Shown in pieces: positions 14,390 through 46,223 of a stretch of 64,000 nt of DNA. The stretch is from a virus. Lineage: Duplodnaviria; Heunggongvirae; Uroviricota; Caudoviricetes. Numbering within the stretch: the stretch's first letter is position 1; every line of letters starts with the position of its first letter. The translations under genes were made by a program, and so were the position numbers. The notes beneath the pieces are model-generated. The model ran no database searches, had not been told where the DNA came from, and was given only the letters and a program-made list of their open reading frames with translations. Location: IMG/VR virus record IMGVR_UViG_2645727901_000008; one strand, 5' to 3'.

Positions 14390-15196
14390 CTATGGTTCCT
14401 TTTTGGTGTTCTTTTGGAGCGCATCGATAACGCCTTGTGGCATGATTAAACTGATTGCCGGACTCATTACTGCATCATCCAGTAGAGAACCAGTTAACGT
14501 GATGGCGACAGCGTTCTCTAAACCTCTGGTTGCCTGAGTGGTTGACGTTTTAATGCGACCTGTAAGGGCTACGACACCCTCACTTGCTGAGTTAATTTCG
14601 GAGAGTAAAACTTCGGCGGCTGTCACTGCTTCCCGTAAAGCATCAATTTCATCCTGAGTAATGACTGGAGCCTGAGCGCCCCCAGCACCACCCTGTCCAC
14701 CATTGCTTTCACCACCACCAGCACTTCCGGTAGCTTCAATTTTTGCGTTAATGGCGTTCATGGCGGTTTTCAGAGCATCAAGTTTTAGCGCCGTCAATGC
14801 GTCCGTCAGAGATTGCGGAATGGAAACATTCCCCATTCCCTCAACAAGGGCGAAAGCAGGTATGGGGGTCAGCTCGTTACCTTTTGCGTAGCATTCCCAG
14901 CCAATCTTCATCTGTAACAGCTCTGATGGTTTGGTGTATGGGGAAAGAGAATCAGCCAGTAATGAAGACGCTTTGCTGGCCTCATTGAGCTGTTCAGAAA
15001 AGCCAAGCAATTGAGTAGTCCAGGCCGAAACAGAATCAGGATAGGTTTTATCGGCGTGAACTATTCCCTGTATGGCGCTGGCGAGCGATGAGGCTTTTAC
15101 AGAAGCTGCCCGGCTTATGGTTATAGATTCTGGTGTAGAGATACCGGCATCTGACAGAATTTTGAAGGCTTTAACTTCACCTATTGAATCAAGCAT
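14390..15196 (-). CDS. Hypothetical alpha-helical protein coupled to the PAAR gene
   Basis: ATG at 15196 overlaps the PAAR stop (TAATG). Confidence 0.45.
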   Translation of the reverse strand: MLDSIGEVKAFKILSDAGISTPESITISRAASVKASSLASAIQGIVHADKTYPDSVSAWTTQLLGFSEQLNEASKASSLLADSLSPYTKPSELLQMKIGWECYAKGNELTPIPAFALVEGMGNVSIPQSLTDALTALKLDALKTAMNAINAKIEATGSAGGGESNGGQGGAGGAQAPVITQDEIDALREAVTAAEVLLSEINSASEGVVALTGRIKTSTTQATRGLENAVAITLTGSLLDDAVMSPAISLIMPQGVIDALQKNTKKEP

Positions 15197-15480
15197 TATG
15201 CAACCTGAAAAATATCCTCGCCGTTGGCGATAACAGAACCACAAGAAAGCGGATCGCCTACACAGACAACTCCCTTTCCACCTATCGAAAACCATACTCG
15301 CGTCGATACAGCTGCCCCTGGATGTGCACTGTTACCGTCAGTGTGACTGGGAAACATGGCACCATCTACAACAACTGGCTTACCGTTAACGGTGAACCAG
15401 GGAACGGTTTCAGCTACCAGTCGCGGCGGAAATCCTCCGTGACCAGAACAAAGGGTGTCGCTGGTGGCTATTGCGCTCAT
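15196..15480 (-). CDS. PAAR-repeat spike-tip protein
   Basis: 94 aa with PAAR-like repeats (GHGG, SHTDG, HPGAAV); AGGAGG RBS. Confidence 0.7.
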   Translation of the reverse strand: MSAIATSDTLCSGHGGFPPRLVAETVPWFTVNGKPVVVDGAMFPSHTDGNSAHPGAAVSTRVWFSIGGKGVVCVGDPLSCGSVIANGEDIFQVA

Positions 15481-15565
15481 TCTTCACCTCCTGGTTATCC
15501 TCCTATTGTCATCACTTTGTTATTTCGTCATTCAAACGGAGAGTTAAATTTCGGAATATTTTTGT

Positions 15566-15724
15566 ATTCTCAATTCGTTCTCAAATAAATCTCACTGTCA
15601 GACCATCATTCGGTGGGTGATTAAGATATTCTCAAAATAAACTCAACAATCGCTCTTTTTATCTCGTTTGGTGTGGATTTTTGGGTGCTTCTCTTTTAAA
15701 ATTACATTTTGGTTCTCAAATGTG
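15566..15724. repeat. parC-like centromere: iterated TTCTCAA(A/T) repeats upstream of parM
   Basis: At least four TTCTCAA copies between 15566 and 15724. Confidence 0.5.
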
Positions 15725-15745
15725 TCTCAGAAGTGGAGCAAGAAG

Positions 15746-16702
15746 ATGCGCATTTTTATCGATGATGGTTCAACCAATATCAAAATGCTGTGGGAGCACG
15801 ACGGGGAAACTCGCACTCACATCAGCCCTAACAGCTTTAAGCGCGGATGGTCAGCAACATTTGGTGCTGGCAAGCCATTTAACTATGTCATTGACGACGA
15901 AAAGTATTCGTATGATTTGATCTCGCCAGATGTTCTGCCGACGAATAACGTGGAATGGCAATACAGCCCGCTTAACGTCCTGGCTGTTCACCATGCCCTG
16001 CTGACAAGTGGCATTGAGCCGCAGGAAGTAGAAATTGTGGTTACGCTGCCACTGGCGGAGTTTTACGACGACGACGCGCAATACAATCTCGATAACATCG
16101 AGCGCAAGAAAGCCAGCCTTATGCGCCCCGTCACGCTGAATAAAGGCAATGTATTCACGATTAAGAAAGTTACGGTACGCCCGGAGTCTATTCCGGCAGG
16201 AATTGGTCTGTGCGACAATCTGAACCCTGCCCACTCTGTTCTTATCGTCGATTTGGGTGGAACTACCCTTGATGTTTCAATGGTCGCCGGGCAAATGACG
16301 GCAGTTTCCCGTGTTTTTGGCGATTCGAATCTTGGTGTATCACTGGTCACCAGGGAAGTAAGGCAAGCACTTGCCAGAGCCAATACCGAAACGTCAAATT
16401 ACAATGTCGATCAGCTCATTATTAACCGCCACGATGAAGATTATCTGAACGACAATATCAATGACCCATCAGCGGTTGGTGATGTGAAAAAGGCCATTGC
16501 CGCAAGCATTGACCGTCTGCGTACCCGCGTTCTTGATGTGATTGGCGACTTTAAAGGATATACGCATGTCATGGTGATCGGTGGTGGCGCACCGCTGGTG
16601 GCAGATGCAATTCGCGAGCAAGTTAATATTCGTGATGACCGTTTCTTCGTGGCGGATGACCCGCAACTTGCTCTTGTTCATGGCCTGAAAGCAATCGGTT
16701 AA
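15746..16702 (+). CDS. parM: Actin-like plasmid segregation ATPase (ParM/StbA family)
   Basis: Actin-fold motifs IFIDDGSTNIK, IVDLGGTTLD, MVIGGGAP; GGAG RBS. Confidence 0.75.
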   Translation: MRIFIDDGSTNIKMLWEHDGETRTHISPNSFKRGWSATFGAGKPFNYVIDDEKYSYDLISPDVLPTNNVEWQYSPLNVLAVHHALLTSGIEPQEVEIVVTLPLAEFYDDDAQYNLDNIERKKASLMRPVTLNKGNVFTIKKVTVRPESIPAGIGLCDNLNPAHSVLIVDLGGTTLDVSMVAGQMTAVSRVFGDSNLGVSLVTREVRQALARANTETSNYNVDQLIINRHDEDYLNDNINDPSAVGDVKKAIAASIDRLRTRVLDVIGDFKGYTHVMVIGGGAPLVADAIREQVNIRDDRFFVADDPQLALVHGLKAIG

Positions 16703-16715
16703 CGAGGTAATGTCC

Positions 16716-17054
16716 ATGTCTCAGGAACGTAAGAAAGTGATGATTTATCTTCGCCCAGAGGCTTATGCCAATGAAAAGGCGGCGAGCGAGAAGATAAAAA
16801 AACATAGCGATATGGCAAGAACCGCATTGTTGGCAGGGCTTGCGCTGGGAGAAGTCGATAGCAGGCTTCCAGGATTACTGGCTTCCCTGCTGACCGAAGA
16901 CAATAACCCGGAGCTGATCCGAAAAATGCTGGCATCCTTCCTGGAACTACCAGCTGCGGTTGAGGAGCGCCCTGCCTCCATTGAGCCAGTGAAGGAGCAA
17001 GTTGTTGCCAAAAGCGCGTCGGCGCGTAATCTTGCTGATTCTCTACCTGATTGA
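16716..17054 (+). CDS. parR: ParR/StbB-like centromere-binding adaptor
   Basis: Small ORF immediately after parM, ATG 16716 with GAGG RBS. Confidence 0.5.
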   Translation: MSQERKKVMIYLRPEAYANEKAASEKIKKHSDMARTALLAGLALGEVDSRLPGLLASLLTEDNNPELIRKMLASFLELPAAVEERPASIEPVKEQVVAKSASARNLADSLPD

Positions 17055-17071
17055 TGGTCAAAACTCTATTT

Positions 17072-17097
17072 TAAGGCTGCAAATTGCAGCCTTTTTT
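17072..17097 (+). terminator. Rho-independent terminator after parR
   Basis: GGCTGCAA-ATTGCAGCC hairpin followed by TTTTTT. Confidence 0.6.
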
Positions 17098-17106
17098 GTT
17101 CCTTTT

Positions 17107-17300
17107 TGGTGTTAAAATGGCATCAAAGCGACACCAAATGGGAGTCGTTAATGTACTGGTGCATACTTGGTGCTAATTTAGTGCTATTCAGGCGCAAAAC
17201 GTGTACCAGTATCCATCGGATTTGATGTTATACTTCCGGCATTAAGAATGGTGCTATTGCTGTACCGTTGATGTGTAAATGTGGTGCTGTTTTAGTGTAA
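17107..17300. repeat. Centromere-like iterated GGTGCT(A)TT repeats upstream of parA
   Basis: At least five GGTGCT-containing repeats; similar GTGCCATAATG repeats and a CGTGTACCAGT box recur at 18270-18335. Confidence 0.45.
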
Positions 17301-17326
17301 AAATAGAGCCAAAATAAAGCCGAGGT

Positions 17327-17974
17327 ATGGACATGATTATCCTGGTAGCAAGTCAAAAGGGAGGCTGTGGCAAGTCAACCACCAGCGTCAATATTTGTGC
17401 CGAGCTGGCCCGAAAAAACAAAGATGTCGTCTTGATTGATGCTGATAAGCAGGGAACGGCAGCTCGATGGGCGTCAGACCGTAATTCGTCCGAAGTGACA
17501 CCAGTTATTCATTGCGTCCAGAAGTTTGGAAATATTCGAGAAACTCTGCTCGATCTTAACAATCGATATGAATACGTGGTTGTTGATACCGCAGGTCGTG
17601 ATAGTAAAGAGATGCGCACAGGTATAACGGCGGCGGATATTCTATTGGTTCCATTCAGGCCGTCTCAGCCAGATTTGGACACGCTGGCACACTTTGTTGA
17701 GGTGTTTGAAGAGGCTTTGGATCTGATGCCTAATCCCAATATTAAGGCGTGCGCAGTCTTAACTATGGCCCCGTCAAATCCGGTTGTGAATGAAGCAAAT
17801 GAGGCCAAAGAGTATCTGGCAGAATATCCGCAACTGAAATTGCTGAAAACCATTATTCGCGATCGCAAGGTTTACCGCGACTGCATGGCTGAAGGAAAGG
17901 GTGTTGTTGAGATGGATAACGGTAAGGCGAAAGGTGAAATTCAGATGTTAGTTAAGGAGTTGCTAAGTGATTAA
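17327..17974 (+). CDS. parA: ParA/ParF-type partition ATPase (small deviant Walker-A)
   Basis: KGGCGKST deviant Walker A motif, 215 aa. Confidence 0.8.
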   Translation: MDMIILVASQKGGCGKSTTSVNICAELARKNKDVVLIDADKQGTAARWASDRNSSEVTPVIHCVQKFGNIRETLLDLNNRYEYVVVDTAGRDSKEMRTGITAADILLVPFRPSQPDLDTLAHFVEVFEEALDLMPNPNIKACAVLTMAPSNPVVNEANEAKEYLAEYPQLKLLKTIIRDRKVYRDCMAEGKGVVEMDNGKAKGEIQMLVKELLSD

Positions 17975-18251
17975 ACGTCGAGAACCAGCTAAAGCGCCTA
18001 AGGCTACTGATCCGGAACTTGAGCGAAGAATTGAAGAGTTCGCCAGCAAAGCGGATTTAATCCCGGATGAAATTACAACGGGGAAGGTGCTTGATAAAGA
18101 TGCGCCGCGCGACTTTAAATCCATACGCGTGAGCTTTAATGAATATGAGTACGGGGTGCTCGATGCGTTAAGCAAAAAGCTTAACCGCAGCAAATTGAAC
18201 CTGATTCGACATGCCATCCTCATGCTTGCTGAGTCAGAGGATGCTAAATGA
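17967..18251 (+). CDS. ParG-like small partition DNA-binding protein
   Basis: 94 aa, overlaps the parA stop, C-terminal ribbon-helix-helix-like region. Confidence 0.5.
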   Translation: MIKRREPAKAPKATDPELERRIEEFASKADLIPDEITTGKVLDKDAPRDFKSIRVSFNEYEYGVLDALSKKLNRSKLNLIRHAILMLAESEDAK

Positions 18252-18370
18252 TACCGATTTGATGCCTTATTGGCGTCTATCGTGTACCAGTGCAATAATG
18301 TGTCAAAGTGGTGCCATAATGGTGTTAATATACAGCCATATTGATATCAAATTGACACTGTATCGGCATC

Positions 18371-18396
18371 AAAAAGCCCCAGGCGGGGCTTTTTCT
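18371..18396. terminator. Bidirectional rho-independent terminator
   Basis: A-run, GCCCC-AGGC-GGGGC hairpin, T-run between convergent parG and dam-like gene. Confidence 0.6.
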
Positions 18397-19300
18397 ATTT
18401 GAGCGTTGCAATGATATCGTTAGCGACTATTCGCGTGGATGCTTTGCATGACACGGACCGTCTGGCTGGCATGTGGTACAGCTTAAAACCGTTTCTTTCG
18501 TACAATTCGCGAATTTTTGGCGCGCCACTGTTTGTTATTACTATCTTTGCACCGCGCTGGTGGGCCGCCACCAACAGTGATACAAGCCGTTTTTGTTCAT
18601 CGAAAAGGAAGCTATTTCCTGAATAGCTGGTAAATCCCTCTGTATCTGGCAGCGGCTCATACGGCGGGTCACAAAAAATCACATCGTCTTTACCAGCCGC
18701 CTCGATGACACCAGCAAAGTCACCTGATACAAAGGAAGTGTTTTTGAGTACGTCATCAGCCAAAAATGCCTTCATCTCTGCATGTGGGAAGTAGGGCGCT
18801 TTGTATTTGCCATACCCCACGTTGAACTCGCCATTTTGGTTGTACCGCGTTACGCCATTAAAACAGTGACGATTAAGGTACAAAAATGCGGCAGCATGAT
18901 GTAGTTGGTCATACTTTCCTCTGTTAAATGCCTCACGCACTTCGAGGTAAGCGTCAGCGTTGTTGTAATTTTTGAAAAAACTATATGACAGCGTGACGAG
19001 CGAATGTCCTTCTCGCTGCAATGTCTGATAGAAGTTAATCAGGTCACCGTTAATATCATTAAGCAGGTTGTGGCGAAATCCTGCATTCGTAAATACGGAA
19101 CCGCCACCAACGAATGGTTCTATTAACCGCTTACCGTGTGGTAGATGCTCAAGCACTGTAGGCAATTCTGAGAATTTACCACCTACCCATTTGAATATCG
19201 GACGCTCATATTCATCCGGAGTCCGAATGGTGCGCATATAGCTAATTTCAGCCATCGTATCCTGTTTTTCTATGGCTATGCTTGCTATAGATTTACTCAT
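18395..19300 (-). CDS. dmt: Dam-type N6-adenine DNA methyltransferase
   Basis: FKWVGGK motif I and DPPY catalytic motif; ATG 19300 overlaps the upstream stop by 8 nt. Confidence 0.75.
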   Translation of the reverse strand: MSKSIASIAIEKQDTMAEISYMRTIRTPDEYERPIFKWVGGKFSELPTVLEHLPHGKRLIEPFVGGGSVFTNAGFRHNLLNDINGDLINFYQTLQREGHSLVTLSYSFFKNYNNADAYLEVREAFNRGKYDQLHHAAAFLYLNRHCFNGVTRYNQNGEFNVGYGKYKAPYFPHAEMKAFLADDVLKNTSFVSGDFAGVIEAAGKDDVIFCDPPYEPLPDTEGFTSYSGNSFLFDEQKRLVSLLVAAHQRGAKIVITNSGAPKIRELYERNGFKLYHMPARRSVSCKASTRIVANDIIATLK

Positions 19301-20045
19301 AGAGCACCCCCTTATTCGCTTCGAAAACTGCCTTTGCGAATCCATGTGGAGTAGCACTTCGAAAATTAGCCCTGTCAGGCCCTGGTGGCGCGGCATGGAT
19401 TCTGTTATCTGGCTTGCCTAATGATTCGTCCATTAGGGCATCAGGCATGACAAAGCCCTGGCCGCTCCAGAGGCATGTTTTTTTTGTGTAGTTATCTTCC
19501 TGACAATATGCAGTGAAGAAGTAAGGGTGAAAGATGTGATCTGGCTTACGCCAGAATGTCGATATTTTGCTGACCGGATTTTCAATCATGTACGGACAAC
19601 CGATCATCTTTGCAATGTCATAACACTGCCAGACAACCTGCATTGCTTTGAACTGGAAAACCGGATCTTTATTAGCCTTGTCCGAAAACCAGCGCGCGCC
19701 GGAAACAGCCAGGTCAGTACACGGTGGGAACCCGGCCAGAAACACGATGCGCTGCAAATTCTTACGGAGAAAAGCGTATACTTCATCGCTATCGATGATC
19801 GCACTAATACGCGTCAGAACGGCACCTGATTGCATCCGCTCGTCACTGGTCGATAAGTGCTGTGGATCGACGATAGCGGCATCGACACCGTATTCCAGCC
19901 AGGGGGCAACCATTGCCCCCGTAAAATCACAAAGACTCACAACAAGCTGTCGGTTATTATCGTTCTGCTTCACCGCCAATGGCCTCCACCAGCGCGTTAA
20001 ACAGTGCAGATAATTCGCCCGTAAAGAGCACGAAATCAGCATCAA
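19293..20045 (-). CDS. C5-cytosine methyltransferase-like protein (catalytic-domain motifs only)
   Basis: Motif I-like [10 protein letters not shown] motif FAGFPPC, ENP motif; overlaps hrdC 3-prime end and the dam-like start. Confidence 0.5.
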
Positions 20046-24121: not shown

Positions 24122-24181
24122 AAAGGTCGATTTATCAGGTATCGAGGGTGCATTGTCTGGAGATTGTGATTTCAATTCATA

Positions 24182-24226
24182 TCCCAACATGGGACTAAAG
24201 TGCTTTACATTGTCCCATATTGGGAC
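24182..24226. promoter_or_regulatory. Two short palindromes upstream of higB (putative HigA operator)
   Basis: TCCCA-ACA-TGGGA and GTCCCA-TAT-TGGGAC inverted repeats. Confidence 0.45.
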
Positions 24227-24256
24227 TACTATACTTTCAGAGAGAAGGAATCTGTG

Positions 24257-24559
24257 ATGAAAATAATTTCGGTAAAAACACTAAGGGATTTCTGGGCGAA
24301 GAATCCCGATGCAGAACAGCCATTAAAGGCATGGGTTGATGAAGCAACAAAGGCTGACTGGAAAAATCCGGCTGAGATCAAAGAACAGTACCGGACAGCC
24401 AGCATCCTTAAAAACAGGCGCGTGGTGTTCAATATTAAGGGAAATGATTACAGGTTAATTGTCGCAATTGCTTATCAGCGAGGATGGATGTTCGTTAAGT
24501 TTATTGGAACACATAAGGAATACGATGCCATTGAAGCGGATACAATAGAACTGGAGTAA
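24257..24559 (+). CDS. higB: HigB-family mRNA interferase toxin
   Basis: 100-aa RelE/HigB-like sequence; toxin-first order with downstream HTH antitoxin. Confidence 0.75.
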   Translation: MKIISVKTLRDFWAKNPDAEQPLKAWVDEATKADWKNPAEIKEQYRTASILKNRRVVFNIKGNDYRLIVAIAYQRGWMFVKFIGTHKEYDAIEADTIELE

Positions 24560-24562
24560 ATC

Positions 24563-24922
24563 ATGAACATTAAACCTATCCGTACAGAACAAGATTATGA
24601 GGCCGCACTGCGTGCGGTCGAACCGATGTTCGATAACGAACCGGAAATGAACACACCGGAAGGCGATTTCTTTGAAGTAATGTGCCTGCTCATTGAAGAG
24701 TACGAGAAAAAGCATTACCCAATTGAGCCACCATCACCTATTGAAGCCATTAAATTCCGTATGGAACAGCAAGGGCTGACCGTGAAGGATCTGGAACCGG
24801 CGATTGGTAAGTCAAATCGAGTTTACGAAGTGCTTAATGGGACACGAAATTTGACGTTACCTATGATTCGTCGTTTACATGCCCAGTTTGGTATTCCACT
24901 GGAAAGTCTGGTTGGTGTTTAA
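24563..24922 (+). CDS. higA: HigA-family HTH antitoxin
   Basis: 119 aa with XRE-type HTH in C-terminal half, 3 nt after the higB stop. Confidence 0.75.
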   Translation: MNIKPIRTEQDYEAALRAVEPMFDNEPEMNTPEGDFFEVMCLLIEEYEKKHYPIEPPSPIEAIKFRMEQQGLTVKDLEPAIGKSNRVYEVLNGTRNLTLPMIRRLHAQFGIPLESLVGV

Positions 24923-24972
24923 GTTTGGCGGTCTGGAGGACCGCTTTTTATCTAAAATAAAAATTAGAAGGT

Positions 24973-25722
24973 TTGATAGCTTGTATGGGCAAAAATTCAT
25001 CAACAGAAAACACATCTACAATTGACTCAATCAAGGGCACAATGGATGAAGCCATAAAAGATAAATTATTTAATAAATTATTTGCATATGTGGTGGTTTC
25101 ATTTTTTGTCGTTAATTGGCAAGAAATACTAATTTTGTTTAAATCTAAATATGATATATACACAACACTGTCTATAGTATGGGTAGGGGATAAATATCAA
25201 ATCCCTTATTTTGGAACCTTCATTGTATCTCCGTTTTTAGCTCACTTTGTGATGCCGTTTATATATGGCACTATTGCGTCCATAGTGATGCCTTATATTA
25301 CTATGCGTATATCAAAACTCACTGGTAGAAATTATGCGCAAATAAGATACATTGACCATGAATTTGACTCAGAAGAGAAAGCAAGAGTAAAGGCGTTGCT
25401 GAGAAACCTAAAGAAAAAAGAGGAAGAGCTTTTAAAATTAGAGGAACAAATAGAAGGTCAACAAAAAATACTGAATACAATCGAAGAAAAGAAGAGAGAG
25501 ATTGAGAGTGCCAGAGTGGCTCTGTATCACGGTATAAAAGTAATTGTTGATATATATAAAGCAAAAGATAAAAGGATTTCCACCAAAGAAGATTTTGCCG
25601 ATTTATTAAAAGCAATTGAAGAAAGTGATTTTTATAAAGACACTGGGTTGTGGGGTATTAATAAATTAATAGATGACGTGGAGACAATATATGAGTCTCA
25701 ATCGACATCAAAGGACAAGTAA
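24973..25722 (+). CDS. AT-rich membrane protein with cytoplasmic coiled-coil
   Basis: Two or three predicted TM helices then Lys/Glu-rich coiled-coil; low GC; start may be ATG 24985. Confidence 0.5.
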   Translation: MIACMGKNSSTENTSTIDSIKGTMDEAIKDKLFNKLFAYVVVSFFVVNWQEILILFKSKYDIYTTLSIVWVGDKYQIPYFGTFIVSPFLAHFVMPFIYGTIASIVMPYITMRISKLTGRNYAQIRYIDHEFDSEEKARVKALLRNLKKKEEELLKLEEQIEGQQKILNTIEEKKREIESARVALYHGIKVIVDIYKAKDKRISTKEDFADLLKAIEESDFYKDTGLWGINKLIDDVETIYESQSTSKDK

Positions 25723-25755
25723 TATAAAAGGCGGGATAACCGCCTTTGTTGTAAA

Positions 25756-26952
25756 TTAAGAACCTTTCTTCACATACTCCATGAACATTTTTTCAGCTTG
25801 TGCAGGTGGTGTTCCTGCCATGACCAGCGCATCAATGAACGCCTGCTTCTTCAGTGCGAACTGATCGGCCAGGCGTTGCTGAAGCTCCTTGTTTTTCTGT
25901 TTCTCACGTTGCAACGCCGCTTCTTTTGCTGCCGCCCGTTTTTTCTGTGCGTCTGACAACTTTCTGGCCTTGGTCAGTTGGTCACGTAGCTTGTCAATCT
26001 TGCCGTTGTCCTTTGCCAGTTTTGTGCTTAAAGCGGCCTGGCGCTTCTGATAGAGCCTCCATTCGCGCTTGGCAGCGTCAACGTTTGTTTTACTGTTGCG
26101 ATTGCGATTAAACTCCCTCTCGTCTTCTTTTGAGAAGTGTTTGGTTGTACGGCGGCGATCGTCACCAAATGCAATTTGCGTTGCGGCCTTTTGTAACGCA
26201 CGAGCAATACTCATTTGCCAACTAGCGGACTGTAACCGCGTCATTGAGTGGATCACGTGTTTACAGGCGACGCCTTGTAGCTTAGGGTTACGAACTTTTG
26301 GATAGGCGTATTCTTTTGGCGGGGCCAGGGCAAAGTTACCCGCAGTAGCGATGTAACGATACCAGTATTGATGACGACCACAGTCACAATCGAAAGACAC
26401 CCGCCCGGCGCACAGTGATTTAGTGATTTTCAGAGCTGATTTATCGTCTTCTGCGATGTCATCGACCATCTGATCCCATTCTTCAAAGCGTATCCGGACG
26501 ATATGGTGCTGGTGGACGGATATATCCGATGCTTCTACGCGGATATGAATCACGTTGTGGCGAAGAGATACGGGTGTAGCTCTTTTGATACCAGATCCGT
26601 CATCCACGGCGTTATTTGCACGCTTAATATCGATTGCCTGGCTGGATGCCACCAGCTGGGCGTATGTGATGCCAGCCGTCTTGCTGTCATATTTTTCGCG
26701 TGTTTTACTCCGTAGCTTTTCGAAACCTTTCAGGTCGTCTCGCGTGAAGAACGTGCCGCCTTTTTTCTTCCCTAACTTGAGAATATCTTCGGCGGATTTG
26801 TTCCTCAGTCTACCTGGCGTCAGCGTCCGGTGAGCTTGTCGGCGCTTACGGGTTTGTTCTTTCCTGATAAGGTCGAATAAACGCGTGAAGTCCTTAGAGG
26901 ACAGGCCGTCAGTGATATAGCGCCCGTCCTGGTTTTTCAGGAAATCAGGCAT
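25756..26952 (-). CDS. SWIM-type zinc-finger protein with basic coiled-coil C-terminus
   Basis: CxCx(n)CxH pattern FDCDCGRH...ACKHVIH; 398 aa. Confidence 0.5.
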   Translation of the reverse strand: MPDFLKNQDGRYITDGLSSKDFTRLFDLIRKEQTRKRRQAHRTLTPGRLRNKSAEDILKLGKKKGGTFFTRDDLKGFEKLRSKTREKYDSKTAGITYAQLVASSQAIDIKRANNAVDDGSGIKRATPVSLRHNVIHIRVEASDISVHQHHIVRIRFEEWDQMVDDIAEDDKSALKITKSLCAGRVSFDCDCGRHQYWYRYIATAGNFALAPPKEYAYPKVRNPKLQGVACKHVIHSMTRLQSASWQMSIARALQKAATQIAFGDDRRRTTKHFSKEDEREFNRNRNSKTNVDAAKREWRLYQKRQAALSTKLAKDNGKIDKLRDQLTKARKLSDAQKKRAAAKEAALQREKQKNKELQQRLADQFALKKQAFIDALVMAGTPPAQAEKMFMEYVKKGS

Positions 26953-27274: not shown

Positions 27275-27467
27275 AACAAAGCCTCTCAGTCATAACATGG
27301 GGGAAACTGTATGCAGGGTGTGAAATGCGAGAAACAGACAGGCCACCAGTTCAGGGGGATGTGGTTCATAAATCCCCTCACTGGTGACAAGTGACTTTCA
27401 TTAATCTTTATGCGGGGGCCAGCTTCATTTGCTGGCATTAGATTAAAAATTAAACGGAGTGAATGAC

Positions 27468-27611
27468 ATGGATGTTATTCTAGAATTGTTAAAGCTTATT
27501 GATCTGTTTATGAACGCCTCATTGACCACTCAAATACTGGCGTCAATATTTTTGTTACTCTTCTACCTGGTATTGAGGGAGTTAACAAAGCTACTAATGT
27601 GATCAAAGTAT
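27468..27611 (+). CDS. Small hydrophobic peptide (47 aa), not in the ORF track
   Basis: ATG preceded by GGAG; hydrophobic core ILASIFLLLFYLVL; 3-prime end overlaps the convergent gene. Confidence 0.3.
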
Positions 27612-29561: not shown

Positions 29562-29584
29562 ACTGCGTTAGCACTTTGAACATG

Positions 29585-29627
29585 GCGACAACACATCTTG
29601 GTGGCTGCGTTGTCGCTGTATGTTTTT
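29585..29627 (+). terminator. Rho-independent terminator after the secreted-protein genes
   Basis: GCGACAAC / GTTGTCGC stem then T-run. Confidence 0.5.
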
Positions 29628-29649
29628 ATAATATAAAGCATTAAAGTTT

Positions 29650-30267
29650 TCATTTTTGTCGGATCTTTTCCAGCATATTTAATTCATTATCACTTTCTGC
29701 TGCTGAGACGGTTGGCCTCACATTTCCGAAATATTTCCTGTGAGACTCATGACTTATGTATTCACCGACAGTTTCATTCTTGAATATACGAATTTGACAT
29801 ATGCGAGATCCAACAATAAGTTCTACAGGGCTATTCCCATGATTAAATAACTCTAAAGATATACAGCCTCTGTACCCTGGTTGTATCATGGTATTTAATG
29901 AAAGACCAAGCCTTGTATAGCTGCTTCTGGACAATACATCAGCGTAGCAATCTGGTGGCAAACAAACATATTCTAATGTTGTTGCCAGTACCACTTGATT
30001 CGGGTAAACAATGAATCTATCCCCAAGATCTCTCCTTGTTTCCTGGAAAAATGTTCTGATTGGTTGATGAGTATCATTGTTTTTTGATGGAATTAACTCT
30101 ATTGACGGCTTCCTTGTCATAATAGACACTAAAAAATCGTAACCAAGTCTAAGGTCTATGGTGAAGTTCCCAATTTGGTTTTTATTTAGAAGAGGTTCAA
30201 TGAACAACGACTCAGGTTCTTCTGATTCATAATATTGCAGCAATTCAGCTTTGCTTAGGAGATTCAT
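29650..30267 (-). CDS. Standalone dCTP deaminase-like enzyme (dUTPase fold)
   Basis: VLATTLEYVCLP, RSSYTRLGL and IQPGYRGCISLELFN align with E. coli Dcd motifs as recalled; ATG 30267 overlaps the upstream stop (ATGA), GGAG RBS. Confidence 0.7.
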   Translation of the reverse strand: MNLLSKAELLQYYESEEPESLFIEPLLNKNQIGNFTIDLRLGYDFLVSIMTRKPSIELIPSKNNDTHQPIRTFFQETRRDLGDRFIVYPNQVVLATTLEYVCLPPDCYADVLSRSSYTRLGLSLNTMIQPGYRGCISLELFNHGNSPVELIVGSRICQIRIFKNETVGEYISHESHRKYFGNVRPTVSAAESDNELNMLEKIRQK

Positions 30268-31337
30268 TGTGCACTCCATTTTTCAAGAATCATTACGTTT
30301 CGAATCGATTTTTCAACCAAATCATTTATAGTTTTTTCTATGGCTTCTTGTGACAACCCAGACCATATACCCGTAGGTTTTTCCCATTCAGAGCATAAGT
30401 ACTGCCAGCTGCTGTTAATAAAAGCATGCATTTCATTGTGGTCGCGAATAACAAAAGGACGCACATTATCAAAAGCTGATTTCACATCAAGCAAAGGTGT
30501 CGGCAATGTCAAACAAGGAGAAATAATCTGCCCACCATTATGTAAGGCTGATATCACAGCATTGAACATGCCAACAACTGGATTTTCCACTTTGTTCAAA
30601 AAGTCGCTTACAATTTTAACTCTATCTTCTGTGGATGGGTGAGTATAGCTTGCAGGATGAGAGCCAGCTAATTTGTATAAGAAATCTACCCCACTTTTTC
30701 CAATAAATTGGGCACTAAATAGATCTGCAAAATATTCTCTGCAATGATTTATCCAAATAACATCAGGTAGATTACTCCATTCTGGTCCAGGAAGTGTGCC
30801 TTTGTCCTTGGAACGATAGTTAAGACAGGCAAGCTCAGAAATACCTTTGCTAATATCAACGAAATGTCCCAATTCGTGATATAAAGGTATAGAGCATAAT
30901 GGTCGTCTTCTGTACATTTCAGGTAATGAAATCTGAATTAATTCGACATCGAATTTGACATTTAAAACTTCGTCAAATAAAGAATACAAATTCTTGTTTA
31001 CAGACTTAAAATAAAACCCATGCATATCTGGAGATAGGGCTGTGGTTATAAGTGTTTTTTCACTTATCCATTTTTTACAGGCATCATTTAAGCAATAGAC
31101 AATCTCGTAGGGAATTTTCTTTGTAGTACTGCCAGTGAAAAAATTAACTGCATCGGTGATAAAAAAAGTACAATCCGCAATTATTTTATCAGCAACATTC
31201 ACATGGTTTTCATAGAGCTTATCCACCGCTTCTTGTAGAACAGCAAGATATTCATGCATGTCTTTAGAAAAATAGGGAGATTCTGATATCTCCCTTAGCT
31301 TATTTCGAACTAATGTAAGTTGTGTAAATGCAAGCAT
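30264..31337 (-). CDS. HExxH metallopeptidase-like protein (ImmA/IrrE-like HELGH motif)
   Basis: PLYHELGHFVD motif in a 357-aa protein; start overlaps the upstream stop (TAATG). Confidence 0.55.
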   Translation of the reverse strand: MLAFTQLTLVRNKLREISESPYFSKDMHEYLAVLQEAVDKLYENHVNVADKIIADCTFFITDAVNFFTGSTTKKIPYEIVYCLNDACKKWISEKTLITTALSPDMHGFYFKSVNKNLYSLFDEVLNVKFDVELIQISLPEMYRRRPLCSIPLYHELGHFVDISKGISELACLNYRSKDKGTLPGPEWSNLPDVIWINHCREYFADLFSAQFIGKSGVDFLYKLAGSHPASYTHPSTEDRVKIVSDFLNKVENPVVGMFNAVISALHNGGQIISPCLTLPTPLLDVKSAFDNVRPFVIRDHNEMHAFINSSWQYLCSEWEKPTGIWSGLSQEAIEKTINDLVEKSIRNVMILEKWSAQ

Positions 31338-31642
31338 TAAATGTACTCTAATACATTCCGGGCCATTACGGGTTCTAACATATCTTCGCTAGTTACTTTG
31401 GTTAGCACCTGGGCGAGCGCCTTAGTGTGGCGTATCTCTACCGCGAGCGAGATGGACTCTCTGTGAGAAGGAATCTGTAATTGATCACCTTTATCTACAC
31501 TTAAGTTTGAGGCTTCTCTGATCACCTCATAAACCCGTAACTTTAACTGCTGTGACACTTCTTGTTGAGATGCTATAAGCTGAAGTACAGTCTTGATCAA
31601 CTTCAAAGAATCAGAAGCTTGCTGAGGAACCGCATAGAGCAT
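31337..31642 (-). CDS. Small protein, first gene of the three-gene cassette
   Basis: 101-aa ORF translationally coupled to the HExxH gene. Confidence 0.45.
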   Translation of the reverse strand: MLYAVPQQASDSLKLIKTVLQLIASQQEVSQQLKLRVYEVIREASNLSVDKGDQLQIPSHRESISLAVEIRHTKALAQVLTKVTSEDMLEPVMARNVLEYI

Positions 31643-31779
31643 AACCCCTCCTTTCCCTTATCTATAACCGCTTTCTTTTTTCTGTGTATGTTAAAAGTAG
31701 AAGCGGTTTTTACCTTTTGTAATATATATAGTGTCTAAAACTAACTTTGGCACTATATATGGCATGATATCTATGTTTT

Positions 31780-31821
31780 AAAGACACAAAAGCTCTGTTA
31801 AAACAGAGCTTTTGTGTCTTT
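31780..31821. repeat. Perfect 20-bp inverted repeat with 2-nt spacer
   Basis: AAAGACACAAAAGCTCTGTT-AA-AACAGAGCTTTTGTGTCTTT. Confidence 0.8.
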
Positions 31822-31967
31822 AACTTGATCATTTTCTCGCTGAAGTGTATGTCAGGCTTAGCTCATAATCAAGTTGCTTCCAAGCTAAAAATGAGCTAGC
31901 TCCCTGAAACACTAAGAGCGGGGTGTTTCATTTATTAGCGTTGGGCCTGACGGTGTGTAGGTGAATT

Positions 31968-32255
31968 TTAGCTCATTACTCGATAACGACGGGGAATGGA
32001 ATTCTCCATCAGGCCACGAATTACTCCCGCCTCACGTAGTTCCTCTGTCTCCCAGTATCTGTTTGTCACCAGATCGAGGCTGGCTATGACCTTGTGCCGG
32101 TCATTCGGCATAGCTAATTTTTCTGCTATAACCATCAGTGAAAACTCTTCATCCAGTAGAATTTGATAGCAGTTTTTTGATAGTTCCACTTCCCTTATGA
32201 GACTGAAACGTCGCTGGATTGTGGCAGTAGAGTAAGTGAAATCTATTTTCTTCAT
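31968..32255 (-). CDS. Hypothetical small protein downstream of ant
   Basis: 95-aa ORF. Confidence 0.4.
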   Translation of the reverse strand: MKKIDFTYSTATIQRRFSLIREVELSKNCYQILLDEEFSLMVIAEKLAMPNDRHKVIASLDLVTNRYWETEELREAGVIRGLMENSIPRRYRVMS

Positions 32256-39611: not shown

Positions 39612-40056
39612 CTATCAAGAACTGCGCGAGGCGGCGGAACAGGCAACGCAAGATGAATGGGTAGCATATATTTTGCCGGGTCATAACGGCATTTATCCTG
39701 CGCGCACGTCTGAAGGTAGGCATTGCGGATACTTTATTGACTGGCCTGGCATTGATGGACAAAGGAATGCTGGTGCTAATGCCCGTTATATCGCGGCTAT
39801 CCCACCAAAAGTTGCACTGTCACTCCTAGGCGAAATTAAGCGCCTGGAGGACAAAAATATTGATGCCATGTGCCAAATTGCAGAGCTGGAGAGCAATCGC
39901 GCGGCGCTGGCGGCGGAGCATGGTATTCAGATTGCAATAAATGAACTGCTTGCTCTGGCCCCGCGTCTGGATAAACGAGCGATGGATGCACTCTCTGTGG
40001 CTGTGGAGCACCTGTGTAAACTGATTAAGAAGGAGGCAGTCAGTGAGCAAAATTAA
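39598..40056 (+). CDS. Ead/Ea22-like protein (MSKINYQ family, copy 1)
   Basis: GTG start with GGAGG RBS; N-terminus shared with two downstream paralogs. Confidence 0.45.
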   Translation: MSKINYQELREAAEQATQDEWVAYILPGHNGIYPARTSEGRHCGYFIDWPGIDGQRNAGANARYIAAIPPKVALSLLGEIKRLEDKNIDAMCQIAELESNRAALAAEHGIQIAINELLALAPRLDKRAMDALSVAVEHLCKLIKKEAVSEQN

Positions 40057-40723
40057 TTACCAGGCACTGCGTGAGGCGGCAGAAAAAGCACTACATGGTG
40101 AATGGGGTTACGAGGCAGGGGCAATCTGGAATACCTGTGATAGCGGCTATGTTCAGCACATGGCAGCGGTCGAGACTGGCGATGATGTTAGCGATGAAGA
40201 GCATATGAGCAATATGCGTTTTATCACGCTCGCCACGCCAACTGTTGTTCTTGGATTGCTTGATGAGCTTTCTGAAGCTAAAGCTGCCGAAGAGAATGAG
40301 TCCAGTTGTGCTAACAGCGTTATCGACATCGCTATCAACTGGCAGATGCGAGCCAAAGATGCAGAAGCCAAGCTGGAAGCCGCAGAGAAGCGCATTGCGG
40401 AACTGGAAACAAAAGCGAACCAGCAAACCAGAATAAGCGATAAGAATCTGACCAGGCTGATTGCCGATGCTGACAAAATGCTGGGTATGCGTTCGCCGGT
40501 TATAGACAGCGAGTGGTGGACGCTTTTACGGCAGTTCCTGATTGAACTTCAGGATCGCCGCAGAAACAGCATTTCTGAATCTGGAATCCGTGCTGAAACC
40601 CTGAATGATTTAATCCGACATATTGACAGAAACCTGGATATTGACGCGATGAAATCGCCGTTTGAACTGTCATCTGAAATTGTGGATTACGTTAATAGGC
40701 AACTGCACAAGGAGAATTCGTAA
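40043..40723 (+). CDS. Ead/Ea22-like protein (copy 2)
   Basis: Same N-terminal module; coiled-coil centre. Confidence 0.45.
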   Translation: MSKINYQALREAAEKALHGEWGYEAGAIWNTCDSGYVQHMAAVETGDDVSDEEHMSNMRFITLATPTVVLGLLDELSEAKAAEENESSCANSVIDIAINWQMRAKDAEAKLEAAEKRIAELETKANQQTRISDKNLTRLIADADKMLGMRSPVIDSEWWTLLRQFLIELQDRRRNSISESGIRAETLNDLIRHIDRNLDIDAMKSPFELSSEIVDYVNRQLHKENS

Positions 40724-40942
40724 TGCAGGTGGCATTTGTTGGCCTGTTACCGCATCCGATCCGCCTTTGGGCGGATATGTCACTCATAAAAACGCATTTT
40801 TTTACTACTGATGGCGGCATTCCGGCACCAAAGCGCCGTCATACCGGTATTGCAGCGGCACGACGAGCAGCAAAGAGACGCAGGAGAGCAAAGCGATGAA
40901 AAACCGTAAAGCAAATAAAGTGGCAAAACAGGAGGCGGCGCA

Positions 40943-41119
40943 GTGAACCAGCAAACCAGAATAAGCGATAAGAGCCTGACCAGACTGATTGCCGATGCGG
41001 ACAAGGTGCTGGAGCGGAACACACCCGTTGCCGATGAGGAATGGTGGCAGGATTTCCGGGCTGCAATGCTGGAACTTCAGGAACGTCGTCGGGAGGAGTT
41101 GAAGTGAGTGAATTAAAGT
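40943..41119 (+). CDS. Short ORF duplicating the C-terminal part of copy 2 (possible gene fragment)
   Basis: About 60-bp direct repeat of 40425-40490; GTG start with AGGAGG RBS. Confidence 0.3.
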
Positions 41120-41367
41120 GTCGAATTAATGGCAATCAGATAGAACCGTGTGCGGTACTGGCAAAAGCACTCGAATATGGAAATCCAGCCTTTAAGAGTA
41201 AAGGCATATTTATCCCGGAACGCGTGAATATAAATACCGGCGAGCCAGGCTTAGACATTGCTCAAATTCACTCCGGCCAATATGTCGGTCGTGGTGTTGC
41301 CATGTGTTTTTGCCCGTTCTGTGGTGAAAGTCTGAAAACATGGAAAAAGGAGGCAACCAGTGAGTGA
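41104..41367 (+). CDS. Small Cys-containing protein, paralog of 39312-39611
   Basis: GTG 41104; same FCPFCGESLKTW C-terminus. Confidence 0.4.
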   Translation: MSELKCRINGNQIEPCAVLAKALEYGNPAFKSKGIFIPERVNINTGEPGLDIAQIHSGQYVGRGVAMCFCPFCGESLKTWKKEATSE

Positions 41368-41914: not shown

Positions 41915-42119
41915 TCGCTGTCCGTCACCGAAAAAAATAGGCTTTTACACCATTGGCGATAAAAACATTTACCTGTATGACCTACGCCGCATGGATGTAA
42001 TCATGGAGGCTCTTGATAATCGTTCGTCGATGGATTGGTGTGCTGCTGTCCATGATATGAATGCCGGATTTGATGAAACGATTTTGTTCCCCTCATCAGT
42101 TGAAAGCACTGCGGGTTAA
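41856..42119 (+). CDS. Hypothetical protein
   Basis: ORF overlapping the previous gene end. Confidence 0.35.
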   Translation: MATLTKKEQAWLNELQDVLDRCPSPKKIGFYTIGDKNIYLYDLRRMDVIMEALDNRSSMDWCAAVHDMNAGFDETILFPSSVESTAG

Positions 42120-42129
42120 GGAGTAACAC

Positions 42130-45621: not shown

Positions 45622-45843
45622 ATGCAATCCATTAACTTCCGTACCGCGCGTGGCAACCTTTCTGAAGTGCTCAACAATGTTGAAGCCGGGGAAGAGGTTG
45701 AAATCACCCGCAGAGGCCGTGAGCCAGCAGTAATTGTCAGCAAGGCTACTTTCGAAGCCTACAAAAAAGCGGCGCTGGATGCTGAATTTGCATCCCTGTT
45801 TGACACCCTGGACTCCACCAACAAGGAACTGGTTAACCGATAA
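45622..45843 (+). CDS. phd: Phd antitoxin
   Basis: [49 protein letters not shown] matches P1 Phd as recalled. Confidence 0.95.
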
Positions 45844-46223
45844 TGAGGCATATATCACCGGAAGAACTTATTGCGCTTCATGATGCGAATATAAGCCGCT
45901 ACGGCGGCCTGCCGGGAATGTCAGATCCGGGTAGGGCAGAGGCCATTATCGGGAGAGTTCAGGCCAGAGTTGCCTACGACGAGATCACCGACCTTTTCGA
46001 AGTCTCCGCCACCTACCTGGTGGCTACGGCGAGAGGGCATATATTCAATGATGCCAATAAGCGTACCGCGCTAAACAGTGCGCTGCTATTTCTACGCCGT
46101 AACGGTATACAGGTATATGATTCTCCCGTGCTGGTGGAACTTGCGGTGGGGGCCGCAACTGGTGAAATCCCCGTATCTTCAGTAGCGGAAAAACTACGTG
46201 AATTATTTGGTTCCAATATTTGA
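45843..46223 (+). CDS. doc: Doc toxin (Fic-fold)
   Basis: 126 aa, start overlaps the phd stop; [11 protein letters not shown] Fic-type motif. Confidence 0.95.

What the first reader, a model, noticed from the sequence alone, without database searches (positions are those of the whole stretch)
15566..18335. Two complete partition systems side by side, plus two TA modules elsewhere
An actin-type ParM/ParR pair with upstream TTCTCAA repeats is followed directly by a Walker-type ParA/ParG-like pair flanked by GGTGCT repeats. With Phd/Doc and HigBA the element stacks four stability modules. This is unusual redundancy and may reflect recent fusion of maintenance modules.
Basis: partly seen in the sequence, partly recalled or inferred. 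Interest (0 to 1): 0.5.

Follow-up and report, generated by a model that had tools for sequence, protein, structure and literature searches.

The report
Double partition locus of D6-like phage-plasmid
The window is a D6-like phage that lives as a plasmid in E. coli, and the flagged stretch is its standard, already annotated pair of plasmid-segregation systems (an actin-type ParM/ParR set followed by a small Walker ParA plus ribbon-helix-helix set); both look intact and long conserved together, so this is an ordinary family trait, not a recent or unusual fusion.

Summary
Window 15567-18335 carries two complete, intact partition cassettes in tandem on the + strand.

- **Cassette 1 (type II):** iteron array, parM, parR, terminator.
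- **Cassette 2 (type Ib):** repeat array, small parA, a 94-aa ribbon-helix-helix adaptor, second repeat array, terminator.
- **Toxin-antitoxin modules:** HigBA (24257-24922) and Phd/Doc (45622-46214) are also real.

The interpretation does not hold. The window is a D6-like (P1-related) phage-plasmid, 99.4% identical here to an E. coli plasmid in PLSDB. Phage D6 has the same four genes in the same order, annotated since 2018. About 112-118 of about 123 D6-like plasmids carry both adaptors. All four genes are under strong purifying selection (dN/dS 0.00-0.13), even where synonymous divergence is saturated. The pairing is therefore old and maintained, not a recent fusion.

It is also not unusual. 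A 2026 survey found type II plus RHH type I in 971 PLSDB plasmids, and pB171, R27 and pINV are studied precedents.

Two details appear to be new. The repeats are 11-bp-phased iterons, with core TCTCA for ParR and core TGGTRC(C) for the RHH protein. The second motif follows the ParA/RHH pair into unrelated replicons. The cassettes are also mosaic between lineages.

The parts
15567..15734 (+). parC-like centromere and operator of the type II system. 11-bp-phased iterons with core (T)TCTCA start at 15567, 15578 and 15589, at 15629 and 15640, and at 15713 and 15724. They flank a putative promoter (-35 about 15674-15679, -10 TAAAAT 15697-15702; inferred).
   Evidence: Cores are conserved while spacers diverge in 8 lineages, and one lineage has an exact 11-bp unit insertion. 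The same TTCTCA 11-bp iterons lie upstream of a Proteus parMR whose ParR is 43% identical.
15746..16702 (+). parM (stbA): actin-like segregation ATPase, 318 aa, intact.
   Evidence: Pfam StbA_N and ParM C-terminal domain. 54% identical to R1 ParM over full length, with the phosphate-binding motifs DDGSTN and DLGGTTLD kept. dN/dS 0.02-0.05.
16710..17054 (+). parR (stbB): centromere-binding adaptor, 114 aa (112 aa from the ATG at 16716 that is annotated in relatives).
   Evidence: Pfam Plasmid_stab_B. pB171 ParR 2JD3, E 1e-6. PHROG 8671 partition protein, 1.7e-60. C-terminal SA(R/Q)NLxxSLPD tail largely invariant across alleles. dN/dS 0.00-0.08.
17073..17099 (+). Intrinsic terminator that ends the parMR operon (AAGGCTGCAA-A-TTGCAGCCTT followed by a T run).
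   Evidence: Nearly invariant in all nine lineages aligned (one has a single loop substitution), while the flanks diverge.
17106..17303 (+). Upstream centromere/operator of the type Ib system (parC1-like). Three blocks of 11-bp-phased TGGTGY/TRGTGY/GTACC units lie at 17106-17150, 17156-17210 and 17248-17303. They surround a conserved extended -10, TGTTATACT, at 17226-17234 (promoter inferred).
   Evidence: GGTRC density in the flanks of 10 related operons is 3.0 per 100 bp against 0.32 in the coding sequence.
17327..17974 (+). parA: small Walker-type (type Ib) partition ATPase, 215 aa (213 aa from the ATG at 17333 that is annotated in relatives).
   Evidence: NCBIfam ParA_partition 161.9 bits, below the 180 cutoff. 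ParF of TP228, E 1e-17 over full length. PHROG 164. dN/dS 0.00-0.05.
17967..18251 (+). Type Ib centromere-binding protein, 94 aa, GTG start overlapping parA by 8 nt. It has a flexible basic N-terminal tail (M-I/V-K-x-R conserved) and a C-terminal ribbon-helix-helix at residues 51-93.
   Evidence: AF2 with 57 sequences: pLDDT 82, strand 51-57, helices 59-72 and 76-93. Foldseek hit lists are nearly all RHH proteins, including ParG 1P94, but E > 0.1. Family members hit Pfam RHH_1, NikA-like, RHH_7, TacA1 and TraY. Distant homologues always directly follow a ~210-aa ParA.
18284..18335 (+). Downstream centromere-like array (parC2-like): GTACCAGTGCA, TGTGTC, TGGTGCC and TGGTGTT in about 11-bp phase.
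   Evidence: Downstream arrays with the same core occur in D6, H13, H66, L005, L006 and L007.
18371..18394 (.). GC-rich hairpin (AAAAAGCCCC-AGGC-GGGGCTTTTT). It is a likely bidirectional terminator between the type Ib operon and the convergent Dam methylase gene (18395-19396, - strand).
   Evidence: inverted repeat I2. Dam confirmed by Pfam MethyltransfD12, 1.5e-55.
24257..24922 (+). higB-higA toxin-antitoxin module (outside the flagged span).
   Evidence: Pfam HigB_toxin 3.3e-34 and HTH_3 3.8e-05.
45622..46214 (+). phd-doc toxin-antitoxin module (outside the flagged span).
   Evidence: tblastn with P1 Phd and Doc sequences that I recalled from memory gave 100% and 91% identity. Pfam PhdYeFM_antitox and Fic/DOC.

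Best explanation
This is the native double partition locus of a D6-like (P1-related) phage-plasmid. It consists of two independent, co-oriented operons that both serve to segregate the low-copy plasmid prophage at cell division. Operon 1 is a type II (ParMRC) system. By analogy with R1 (inferred), ParR dimers bind the 11-bp-phased TCTCA iterons that flank the parMR promoter, repress that promoter, and cap ParM actin-like filaments through the conserved ParR C-terminal tail, so that filament growth pushes sister plasmids apart. A conserved terminator ends this operon. Operon 2 is a type Ib system. The 94-aa ribbon-helix-helix protein is inferred to bind the 11-bp-phased TGGTRC(C) arrays on both sides of the operon, to autoregulate through the array around the extended -10 promoter, and to stimulate the small nucleoid-bound ParA ATPase through its basic N-terminal tail. 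This would position plasmids over the nucleoid as in pB171 par2 and TP228 ParFGH. Shown here: gene identities, integrity, fold, repeat arrays and their conservation, purifying selection, and family-wide linkage. Inferred: DNA binding, promoters, and actual stabilisation. The two systems have been linked since before the known D6-like lineages diverged, and they exchange alleles between lineages by recombination.
For: The RHH fold of the fourth protein comes. The same GGTACC-type 11-bp repeats lie on both flanks of those operons. Phased repeat dimers occur only in the par intergenic regions of the 64-kb window. Iteron cores are conserved while spacers diverge, and one lineage has an 11-bp unit indel. 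The same four-gene order is found in phage D6 and in all ten D6-like plasmids fetched: nine that were annotated plus H66, where the order was confirmed by tblastn. The adaptors are near-universal in D6-like PLSDB records: 118 and 112 of about 123. dN/dS is 0.00-0.13 for all four genes, with dS up to more than 1. Segment identities are mosaic. A terminator separates the operons. Published precedents for functional double par loci: PMC13245405, PMC6519299 and PMC4270457.
Against: No experiment on D6-family partition was found in the searchable literature, so function rests on homology and conservation. The RHH protein has no Pfam hit of its own, and Foldseek E-values are above 0.1. ParA scores below the NCBIfam equivalog cutoff (161.9 against 180). 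The GGTRC-type units in the window are degenerate. The closest database plasmid has a 1-nt deletion that frameshifts parM. If real, this shows that one system can be lost.
Confidence: 0.85

Rival explanations
1. Recent fusion with one redundant passenger. One cassette was acquired recently by this element, is not needed, and is on its way to decay.
For: The two cassettes have discordant divergence between lineages. Window against D6: parM dS 0.10 but parA dS 1.25. This shows cassette-level recombination. The closest plasmid has a frameshifted parM in its deposited sequence.
Against: The arrangement is present in phage D6 and in every D6-like lineage examined across four genera. Counts of both adaptors nearly equal the number of D6-like plasmids. 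All four genes are intact and under strong purifying selection. The recombination replaces alleles at a fixed position; it does not add a module.
Confidence: 0.04
2. The ParA/RHH pair is not a partition system. It would be a regulatory or copy-control module (the RHH gene may be the one called 'cop' in pYU39_89), or a positioning system for something other than the plasmid.
For: [quoted passage not shown] That this is the RHH gene is my inference. RHH proteins are commonly repressors, and family members hit CopG-type Pfam models. Part of the array overlaps the inferred promoter, which fits autoregulation.
Against: In type Ib systems the adaptor is also the autorepressor, so regulation and partition are not exclusive. 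The gene is translationally coupled to a full-length ParF-like ATPase with an intact deviant Walker A. The pair is conserved next to replication genes in unrelated replicons. Arrays also lie downstream of the operon, where no promoter needs regulating.
Confidence: 0.06
3. Both systems are functional but not simply redundant. They would be kept together because each covers conditions in which the other fails. Examples are partition incompatibility from a co-resident plasmid with a related ParMRC or ParA system, a different host, or a different temperature. Allele shuffling of adaptors and centromeres would reflect selection to escape such incompatibility. This refines the best explanation rather than excluding it.
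For: Motors are conserved, while adaptors and centromere regions diverge far more and reassort. A third ParR allele (58-63% identical, changed in the N-terminal DNA-binding part) goes with GTCTCT instead of TTCTCA iterons. Temperature- or condition-dependent division of labour is reported for pINV and proposed for R27 (PMC6519299, PMC13245405).
Against: The RHH domain of the type Ib adaptor and the GGTRC core stay nearly the same across alleles. Most change is in the disordered N-terminal part and in the spacers, which may simply evolve fast. No co-residence or incompatibility data exist.
Confidence: 0.3

Closest known systems
Phage D6 orf58-orf61 (MF356679) and D6-like plasmid prophages such as pYU39_89
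   Same: Same four genes in the same order and orientation, between the PAAR/upfC gene and the dmt region. The parMR part is 96.7% identical in DNA. ParA is 93% and the RHH protein 78% identical in protein. Both also have phd-doc and higAB (PMC6799933).
   Different: The window carries a minority allele of the type Ib cassette: at least 95% identity in 9 PLSDB records, against 102 records at 60-80% identity. It lacks the glnS gene that follows the cassette in D6. In the D6 allele the array downstream of the parA promoter is missing.
pB171 double par locus (par1 parMR plus par2 parAB with parC1 and parC2; Ebersbach and Gerdes 2001, Ringgaard 2007)
   Same: An adjacent type II plus RHH type Ib combination. 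The type Ib operon is flanked by centromere arrays on both sides (the parC1-parA-parB-parC2 layout is visible in PMC4270457). ParR belongs to the same Pfam family as pB171 ParR.
   Different: From my own knowledge, the pB171 operons are divergent and share parC1, with regulatory cross-talk. Here the operons are tandem and separated by a terminator, and each has its own array. tblastn with the RHH protein (E <= 1e-3) hit E. coli plasmids in numbers matching the D6-like records; every listed E. coli hit is of D6-like size (87-97 kb) and the one divergent hit checked (H66) is D6-like, so relatedness to pB171 ParB is not detected.
R1 ParMRC
   Same: ParM is 54% identical over its full length. The adaptor gene lies directly downstream. 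Upstream, 11-bp iterons flank the promoter; the R1 layout of ten 11-bp iterons is from my own knowledge (Dam and Gerdes 1994).
   Different: About 7-8 recognisable iterons in a 3 + 2(3) + 2 pattern rather than 5 + 5. ParR is closer to pB171 StbB than to any other solved ParR.
TP228 ParF/ParG/parH
   Same: A small ParA (ParF is the best solved match, E 1e-17). The adaptor has a flexible N-terminal tail and a C-terminal RHH. ParG is among the top Foldseek hits.
   Different: No sequence-level membership in Pfam ParG. The repeats are 11-bp-phased TGGTRC(C) units on both sides of the operon, not upstream ACTC tetramer boxes (the parH description is from my own knowledge).
Shigella pINV and R27
   Same: Large low-copy elements that stack two partition systems of different types with several TA modules. 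Both par systems were shown to be functional (PMC6519299; R27 cited in PMC13245405).
   Different: Those are virulence or conjugative plasmids, and their two par loci are not adjacent tandem operons on a phage genome.

Membership tests
Type II (ParMRC) partition system | Actin-like ATPase ParM with intact nucleotide-binding motifs | tested here: met
   Pfam StbA_N 1.7e-69 and ParM C-terminal domain 6.6e-55. Full-length alignment to R1 ParM at 54% identity, with DDGSTN, DLGGTTLD and IGGGA conserved.
Type II (ParMRC) partition system | ParR adaptor gene directly downstream, with an N-terminal RHH DNA-binding domain and a C-terminal ParM-binding tail | tested here: met
   Pfam Plasmid_stab_B 3.5e-11. 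pB171 ParR 2JD3, E 1e-6, over residues 4-76. C-terminal tail largely invariant across alleles down to 48% identity. ParM binding itself was not tested.
Type II (ParMRC) partition system | Upstream centromere of phased iterons overlapping the operon promoter | tested here: met
   TCTCA iterons in 11-bp phase, significant and conserved. Promoter position is inferred only. ParR binding is not testable here.
Type Ib (small ParA plus RHH adaptor) partition system | ParA of about 200-220 aa without an N-terminal HTH domain, with deviant Walker A KGGxxK[ST] | tested here: met
   213-215 aa with KGGCGKST. Full-length match to ParF. NCBIfam ParA_partition matched end to end.
Type Ib (small ParA plus RHH adaptor) partition system | Small adaptor with a ribbon-helix-helix fold, encoded directly after parA | tested here: met
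   AF2 beta-alpha-alpha at residues 51-93, pLDDT 82. RHH-dominated Foldseek lists. Pfam RHH families are hit by up to 20 of the 57 family members each. 8-nt overlap with parA.
Type Ib (small ParA plus RHH adaptor) partition system | Repeat arrays next to the operon that serve as centromere | tested here: met
   At sequence level only: about 10-fold enrichment of GGTRC in the flanks of 10 related operons, with spacings in multiples of about 11. Binding and centromere activity are not testable here.
NCBIfam NF041546 ParA_partition (equivalog) | Score at or above the curated cutoff of 180 bits | tested here: not met
   161.9 bits. It is a relative but not an equivalog member.
Pfam ParG family (TP228 ParG) | Sequence match to the ParG model or to ParG itself | tested here: not met
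   The window protein has no Pfam hit. ParG is not among the 25 listed (of 30) families hit by 57 homologues. Neither phmmer nor a profile search against the PDB finds ParG. Only a fold-level resemblance is seen.
pB171-type double par locus | Divergent par1 and par2 operons sharing one central centromere/operator | tested here: not met
   Both operons are on the + strand and are separated by a conserved terminator at 17073-17099. Their arrays are distinct.
D6-like phage-plasmids (P1/D6 group) | Synteny and high identity to phage D6 and to rep_cluster_1704 plasmid prophages | tested here: met
   96.7% identity to D6 over 1716 nt, with the same neighbours (PAAR/upfC, dmt, rdgC, capsid, sheath). 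The window is collinear with NZ_CP115379.1 at 90-98% over most of its length.

The most novel reading that the evidence does not exclude
The two systems are kept together as mutual insurance against partition incompatibility. The lineage-to-lineage reshuffling of adaptor and centromere alleles (for example the ParR allele that goes with GTCTCT rather than TTCTCA iterons) would be driven by competition among co-resident phage-plasmids and plasmids. The tandem double locus would then be a recombination hotspot for incompatibility specificity in a phage.
Probability: 0.2. Interest if true: 0.45.

Novelty: already known. Interest (0 to 1): 0.2.

Why it matters
It matters little beyond correct annotation. 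The locus explains how D6-like plasmid prophages, which are widespread at low frequency in E. coli, Shigella and Salmonella, are inherited stably. The work yields three usable results:

- Explicit candidate centromere motifs for both systems: 11-bp-phased TCTCA iterons, and TGGTRC(C) arrays on both sides of the ParA operon.
- Evidence that the second motif is shared by a wider, uncharacterised family of ParA/RHH modules.
- Evidence that the two cassettes recombine independently between lineages.

These could guide incompatibility typing of D6-like elements, which current replicon-typing tools do not cover (bioRxiv 10.1101/2025.09.12.675607).

Tried and rejected
- **pB171 sequence:** fetching pB171 (NC_002142, AB024946) from the plasmid collection failed because the record is not held. 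The adaptor and ParA could therefore not be compared directly with pB171 ParB and ParA.
- **Key papers:** the D6 genome paper (Gilcrease and Casjens 2018) and Ebersbach and Gerdes 2001 are not held in the library. What D6 annotators thought is taken from the GenBank notes.
- **First structure model:** the first AF2 model, built from 11 close homologues, was poor (pLDDT 60). It was replaced by a 57-sequence model.
- **Fold and profile searches:** Foldseek gave no significant E-values for the small RHH domain. A PDB profile search gave only weak CopG and HP0222 matches.
- **RNA families:** an Rfam scan of 15000-19000 found nothing.
- **Promoter scan:** the generic promoter scan found no more sites than shuffles and missed the conserved candidates. 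The promoters are therefore inferred from conservation only.
- **Cross-regulation:** I considered that ParG-type sites inside the parM promoter (TGGTGT and GGTGCT at 15668-15689) mean cross-regulation as in pB171. I rejected this because those bases are not conserved in other lineages.
- **Dispersed centromeres:** I looked for N15-like dispersed centromere clusters elsewhere in the window. None was found; each motif has a single maximum at the par locus.
Full report
**What is there**

Between 15567 and 18394 the + strand carries two co-oriented operons.

The first operon is the type II system.
- It starts with an AT-rich leader whose 11-bp-phased iterons begin at 15567, 15578 and 15589, at 15629 and 15640, and at 15713 and 15724.
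- parM follows at 15746-16702, then parR at 16710-17054, then a perfect hairpin terminator at 17073-17099.
- ParM hits Pfam StbA_N (1.7e-69) and the ParM C-terminal domain (6.6e-55). It aligns end to end with R1 ParM at 54% identity with the nucleotide-binding motifs intact.
- ParR hits Pfam Plasmid_stab_B, PHROG 8671 'partition protein' and the solved pB171 ParR, 2JD3 (E 1e-6).

The second operon is the type Ib system.
- It begins after a 270-bp spacer that holds three blocks of 11-bp-phased TGGTGY/TRGTGY/GTACC units (17106-17150, 17156-17210, 17248-17303).
- These blocks surround a conserved extended -10, TGTTATACT, at 17226-17234.
- It encodes a 213-215-aa ParA with the deviant Walker A KGGCGKST. 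Its best solved relative is ParF of TP228, E 1e-17. It scores 161.9 bits on NCBIfam ParA_partition, below the 180 cutoff.
- A 94-aa protein follows, with a GTG start that overlaps the end of parA by 8 nt.
- A second short array (18284-18335) and a GC-rich hairpin (18371-18394) close the operon against the convergent Dam methylase gene.

**The fourth protein**

- It has no Pfam hit of its own. A profile search of 1.84 billion representative proteins found 125 relatives of 55-130 aa.
- Of 57 aligned relatives, many hit ribbon-helix-helix families: NikA-like 20, RHH_1 18, DUF6290 10, plus RHH_7, TacA1 and TraY.
- An AlphaFold model from that alignment (pLDDT 82) shows a disordered basic N-terminus, one helix, then strand 51-57 and helices 59-72 and 76-93. 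This is the RHH topology.
- Foldseek hit lists consist almost wholly of RHH proteins, including ParG, CopG, PutA, TacA, Arc and AmrZ. E-values stay above 0.1, as expected for a 45-residue domain modelled as a monomer.
- Three distant homologues (44-54% identity) each lie directly after a 209-212-aa ParA, and next to Rep3, RepA_C or resolvase genes, on unrelated replicons.
- 'ParG-like' is therefore right for role and fold. It is not right for sequence family: no ParG match was found by Pfam, phmmer or profile search.

**Are the repeats more than chance?**

- TTCTCAA occurs 4 times in about 150 bp (15567-15719), all on one strand, against 17 in the 128 kb of both strands.
- The phased dimer TCTCA-N6-TCTCA occurs three times in the window, all here. 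The expectation is 0.14, and 0 of 100 shuffles reach 3.
- For the second system the exact GGTGCT occurs only three times, and only upstream.
- The phased dimer TGGTGY-N5-TRGTGY occurs four times, all in the two flanks of the operon, against 0.08 expected. I wrote this pattern after seeing the sequence, so it is partly circular.
- Each motif has its single window-wide density maximum at the par locus.

The stronger evidence is comparative.
- In eight lineages whose parM leader is 66-99% identical, the TCTCA cores are conserved while the spacers drift. One lineage has an insertion of exactly one 11-bp unit.
- A Proteus conjugative plasmid whose ParR is 43% identical has the same ATTCTCA units at 11-bp spacing.
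- For the type Ib system, GGTRC and its complement reach 3.0 per 100 bp in the flanks of ten related operons. The density is 0.32 in their coding sequence and 0.30 window-wide. Spacings cluster at 10-11, 21-22 and 32-34 bp.
- In two distant loci (ParA 60% identical, adaptor 44-47% identical) the units are perfect TGGTACC palindromes 11 bp apart. They lie on both sides of the operon in L006; in L007 only the downstream side could be examined.
- The repeat motif therefore travels with the protein family. That is what a cognate binding site should do.

**Context**

- The window is a D6-like phage-plasmid. The flagged region is 99.4% identical to E. coli plasmid NZ_CP115379.1 and matches 123 PLSDB records, nearly all non-mobilizable replicons. 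The 27 listed are 78-97 kb and come from Escherichia, Salmonella and Shigella.
- The parMR half is 96.7% identical to phage D6. D6 annotates the same four genes as orf58-61: 'StbA type', 'StbB type', 'possible ParA partitioning function' and 'hypothetical'. They sit between the P1 upfC homologue and the dmt region.
- The window is collinear with the closest plasmid at 90-98% over most of its length.
- HigB/HigA (24257-24922) and Phd/Doc (45622-46214) are confirmed.
- The published description of the D6-like plasmid pYU39_89 lists exactly these maintenance modules (PMC6799933).

**Recent fusion?**

No.
- All ten D6-like plasmids fetched, plus D6 itself, have the four genes in the same order. 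They come from E. coli, E. fergusonii, Shigella dysenteriae and Salmonella.
- tblastn finds the RHH adaptor at 60% identity or more in 118 PLSDB records, and ParR at 80% or more in 112. About 123 records are D6-like.
- All four genes are intact in the eight lineages where they could be scored.
- dN/dS is 0.02-0.05 for parM, 0.00-0.08 for parR, 0.00-0.05 for parA and 0.04-0.13 for the adaptor. Synonymous divergence reaches 0.4-0.9 in the first cassette and exceeds 1 in the second.
- Both systems have therefore been maintained by selection over long divergence.

What does vary is the combination of alleles.
- Window against D6: parM dS 0.10, parA dS 1.25.
- Window against the Shigella plasmid: parM dS 0.40, parA dS 0.19, adaptor dS 1.04.
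- The locus is therefore mosaic, with breakpoints between and inside the cassettes.
- The window combines the common ParR allele (at least 99% identity in 91 records) with a rare adaptor allele (at least 95% identity in 9 records, against 102 at 60-80%).
- A third ParR allele is 58-63% identical and is changed in the N-terminal DNA-binding part but not in the C-terminal tail. It goes with GTCTCT rather than TTCTCA iterons. This hints at diverging specificity.
- In contrast, the RHH domain of the type Ib adaptor and its GGTRC core stay nearly constant across alleles.

**Unusual?**

No.
- A 2026 survey of PLSDB found multiple partition systems in 19% of plasmids that have any. It found the type I RHH plus type II combination in 971 accessions and describes it as previously reported (PMC13245405).
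- pB171 is the classic adjacent type II plus type Ib locus, with centromeres on both sides of the type Ib operon (layout visible in PMC4270457).
- Shigella pINV carries two functional par systems and three TA systems (PMC6519299).
- The D6 arrangement differs from pB171 in being tandem, with a terminator between the operons and separate arrays. From my own knowledge of Ebersbach and Gerdes 2001 and Ringgaard 2007, pB171 is divergent with a shared parC1.

**Mechanism**

Shown:
- The components, their integrity, the fold of the adaptor, the arrays and their co-occurrence with the proteins, and selection on all four genes.

Inferred from R1, pB171 and TP228:
- ParR coats the iterons, represses its own promoter and captures ParM filament ends through its conserved C-terminal tail.
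- The RHH adaptor coats both flanking arrays and autoregulates.
- Through its conserved basic N-terminus (M-I/V-K-x-R, nearly invariant over 57 homologues) the adaptor activates nucleoid-bound ParA.

I put 0.85 on both being working partition systems. Whether they are plainly redundant or divide labour by host, temperature or co-resident plasmids is open. I found no experiments on D6-family partition.

**Verdict**

The gene-level reading is right. 'Unusual' and 'recent fusion' are not supported. The locus is already annotated in D6 and its relatives and belongs to a well-known class of double par loci. The new contribution is limited to the explicit centromere motifs and the mosaic allele structure. 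Interest is low.

Noticed in passing
window 15891 versus NZ_CP115379.1 (L002 about 6493): The closest database plasmid (99.4% identical) has a 1-nt deletion (TT to T) that frameshifts parM at codon 49-50, and its parM is not in the gene table. Another relative, CP042620.1, shows several frameshifts in parM. This could be real loss of the type II motor tolerated because of the second system, or long-read assembly error.
   Followed up: partly
window 18252-18394 versus L001 9133-10794, and L010, L011, L013, L014: Phage D6 and several relatives carry a glutaminyl-tRNA synthetase gene (glnS) directly after the type Ib cassette. The window and some other lineages (H4, H22, H91) lack it and run straight into the Dam methylase gene.
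   Followed up: no
window 24172-25764 and 27337-27541: The window's higBA (HigB_toxin family) sits where the closest plasmid has no megablast match and instead carries a RelE/ParE-type toxin with a HigA antitoxin. A second RelE/HigA pair of that plasmid (28188-28759) is absent from the window. TA cassettes appear to be swapped or lost at fixed positions.
   Followed up: partly
window 29563-31981, 39902-42875, 43472-45157: These stretches have no megablast match (>400 nt) to the otherwise collinear closest plasmid. They are presumably variable accessory regions of the phage-plasmid.
   Followed up: no
L016 1340-1520 (NZ_LR890273.1) and L015 (NZ_CP069647.1): A third ParR allele in D6-like plasmids is 58-63% identical and carries a 5-residue insertion and changes in the N-terminal DNA-binding part. 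It is paired with GTCTCT-type iterons in a 3 + 3 + 2 pattern, while the two iterons nearest the parM start stay TTCTCA/GTCTCA.
   Followed up: partly
L006 626-706 and 1646-1676; L007 915-935: Unrelated metagenomic replicons with a homologous ParA/RHH pair have perfect TGGTACC palindromes spaced exactly 11 bp apart (upstream and downstream of the operon in L006, downstream in L007). This suggests an uncharacterised type Ib subfamily with a shared centromere motif.
   Followed up: partly
window 15196-15480, - strand: A PAAR-motif protein (homologue of P1 upfC) is encoded divergently, directly upstream of the parM leader.
   Followed up: no
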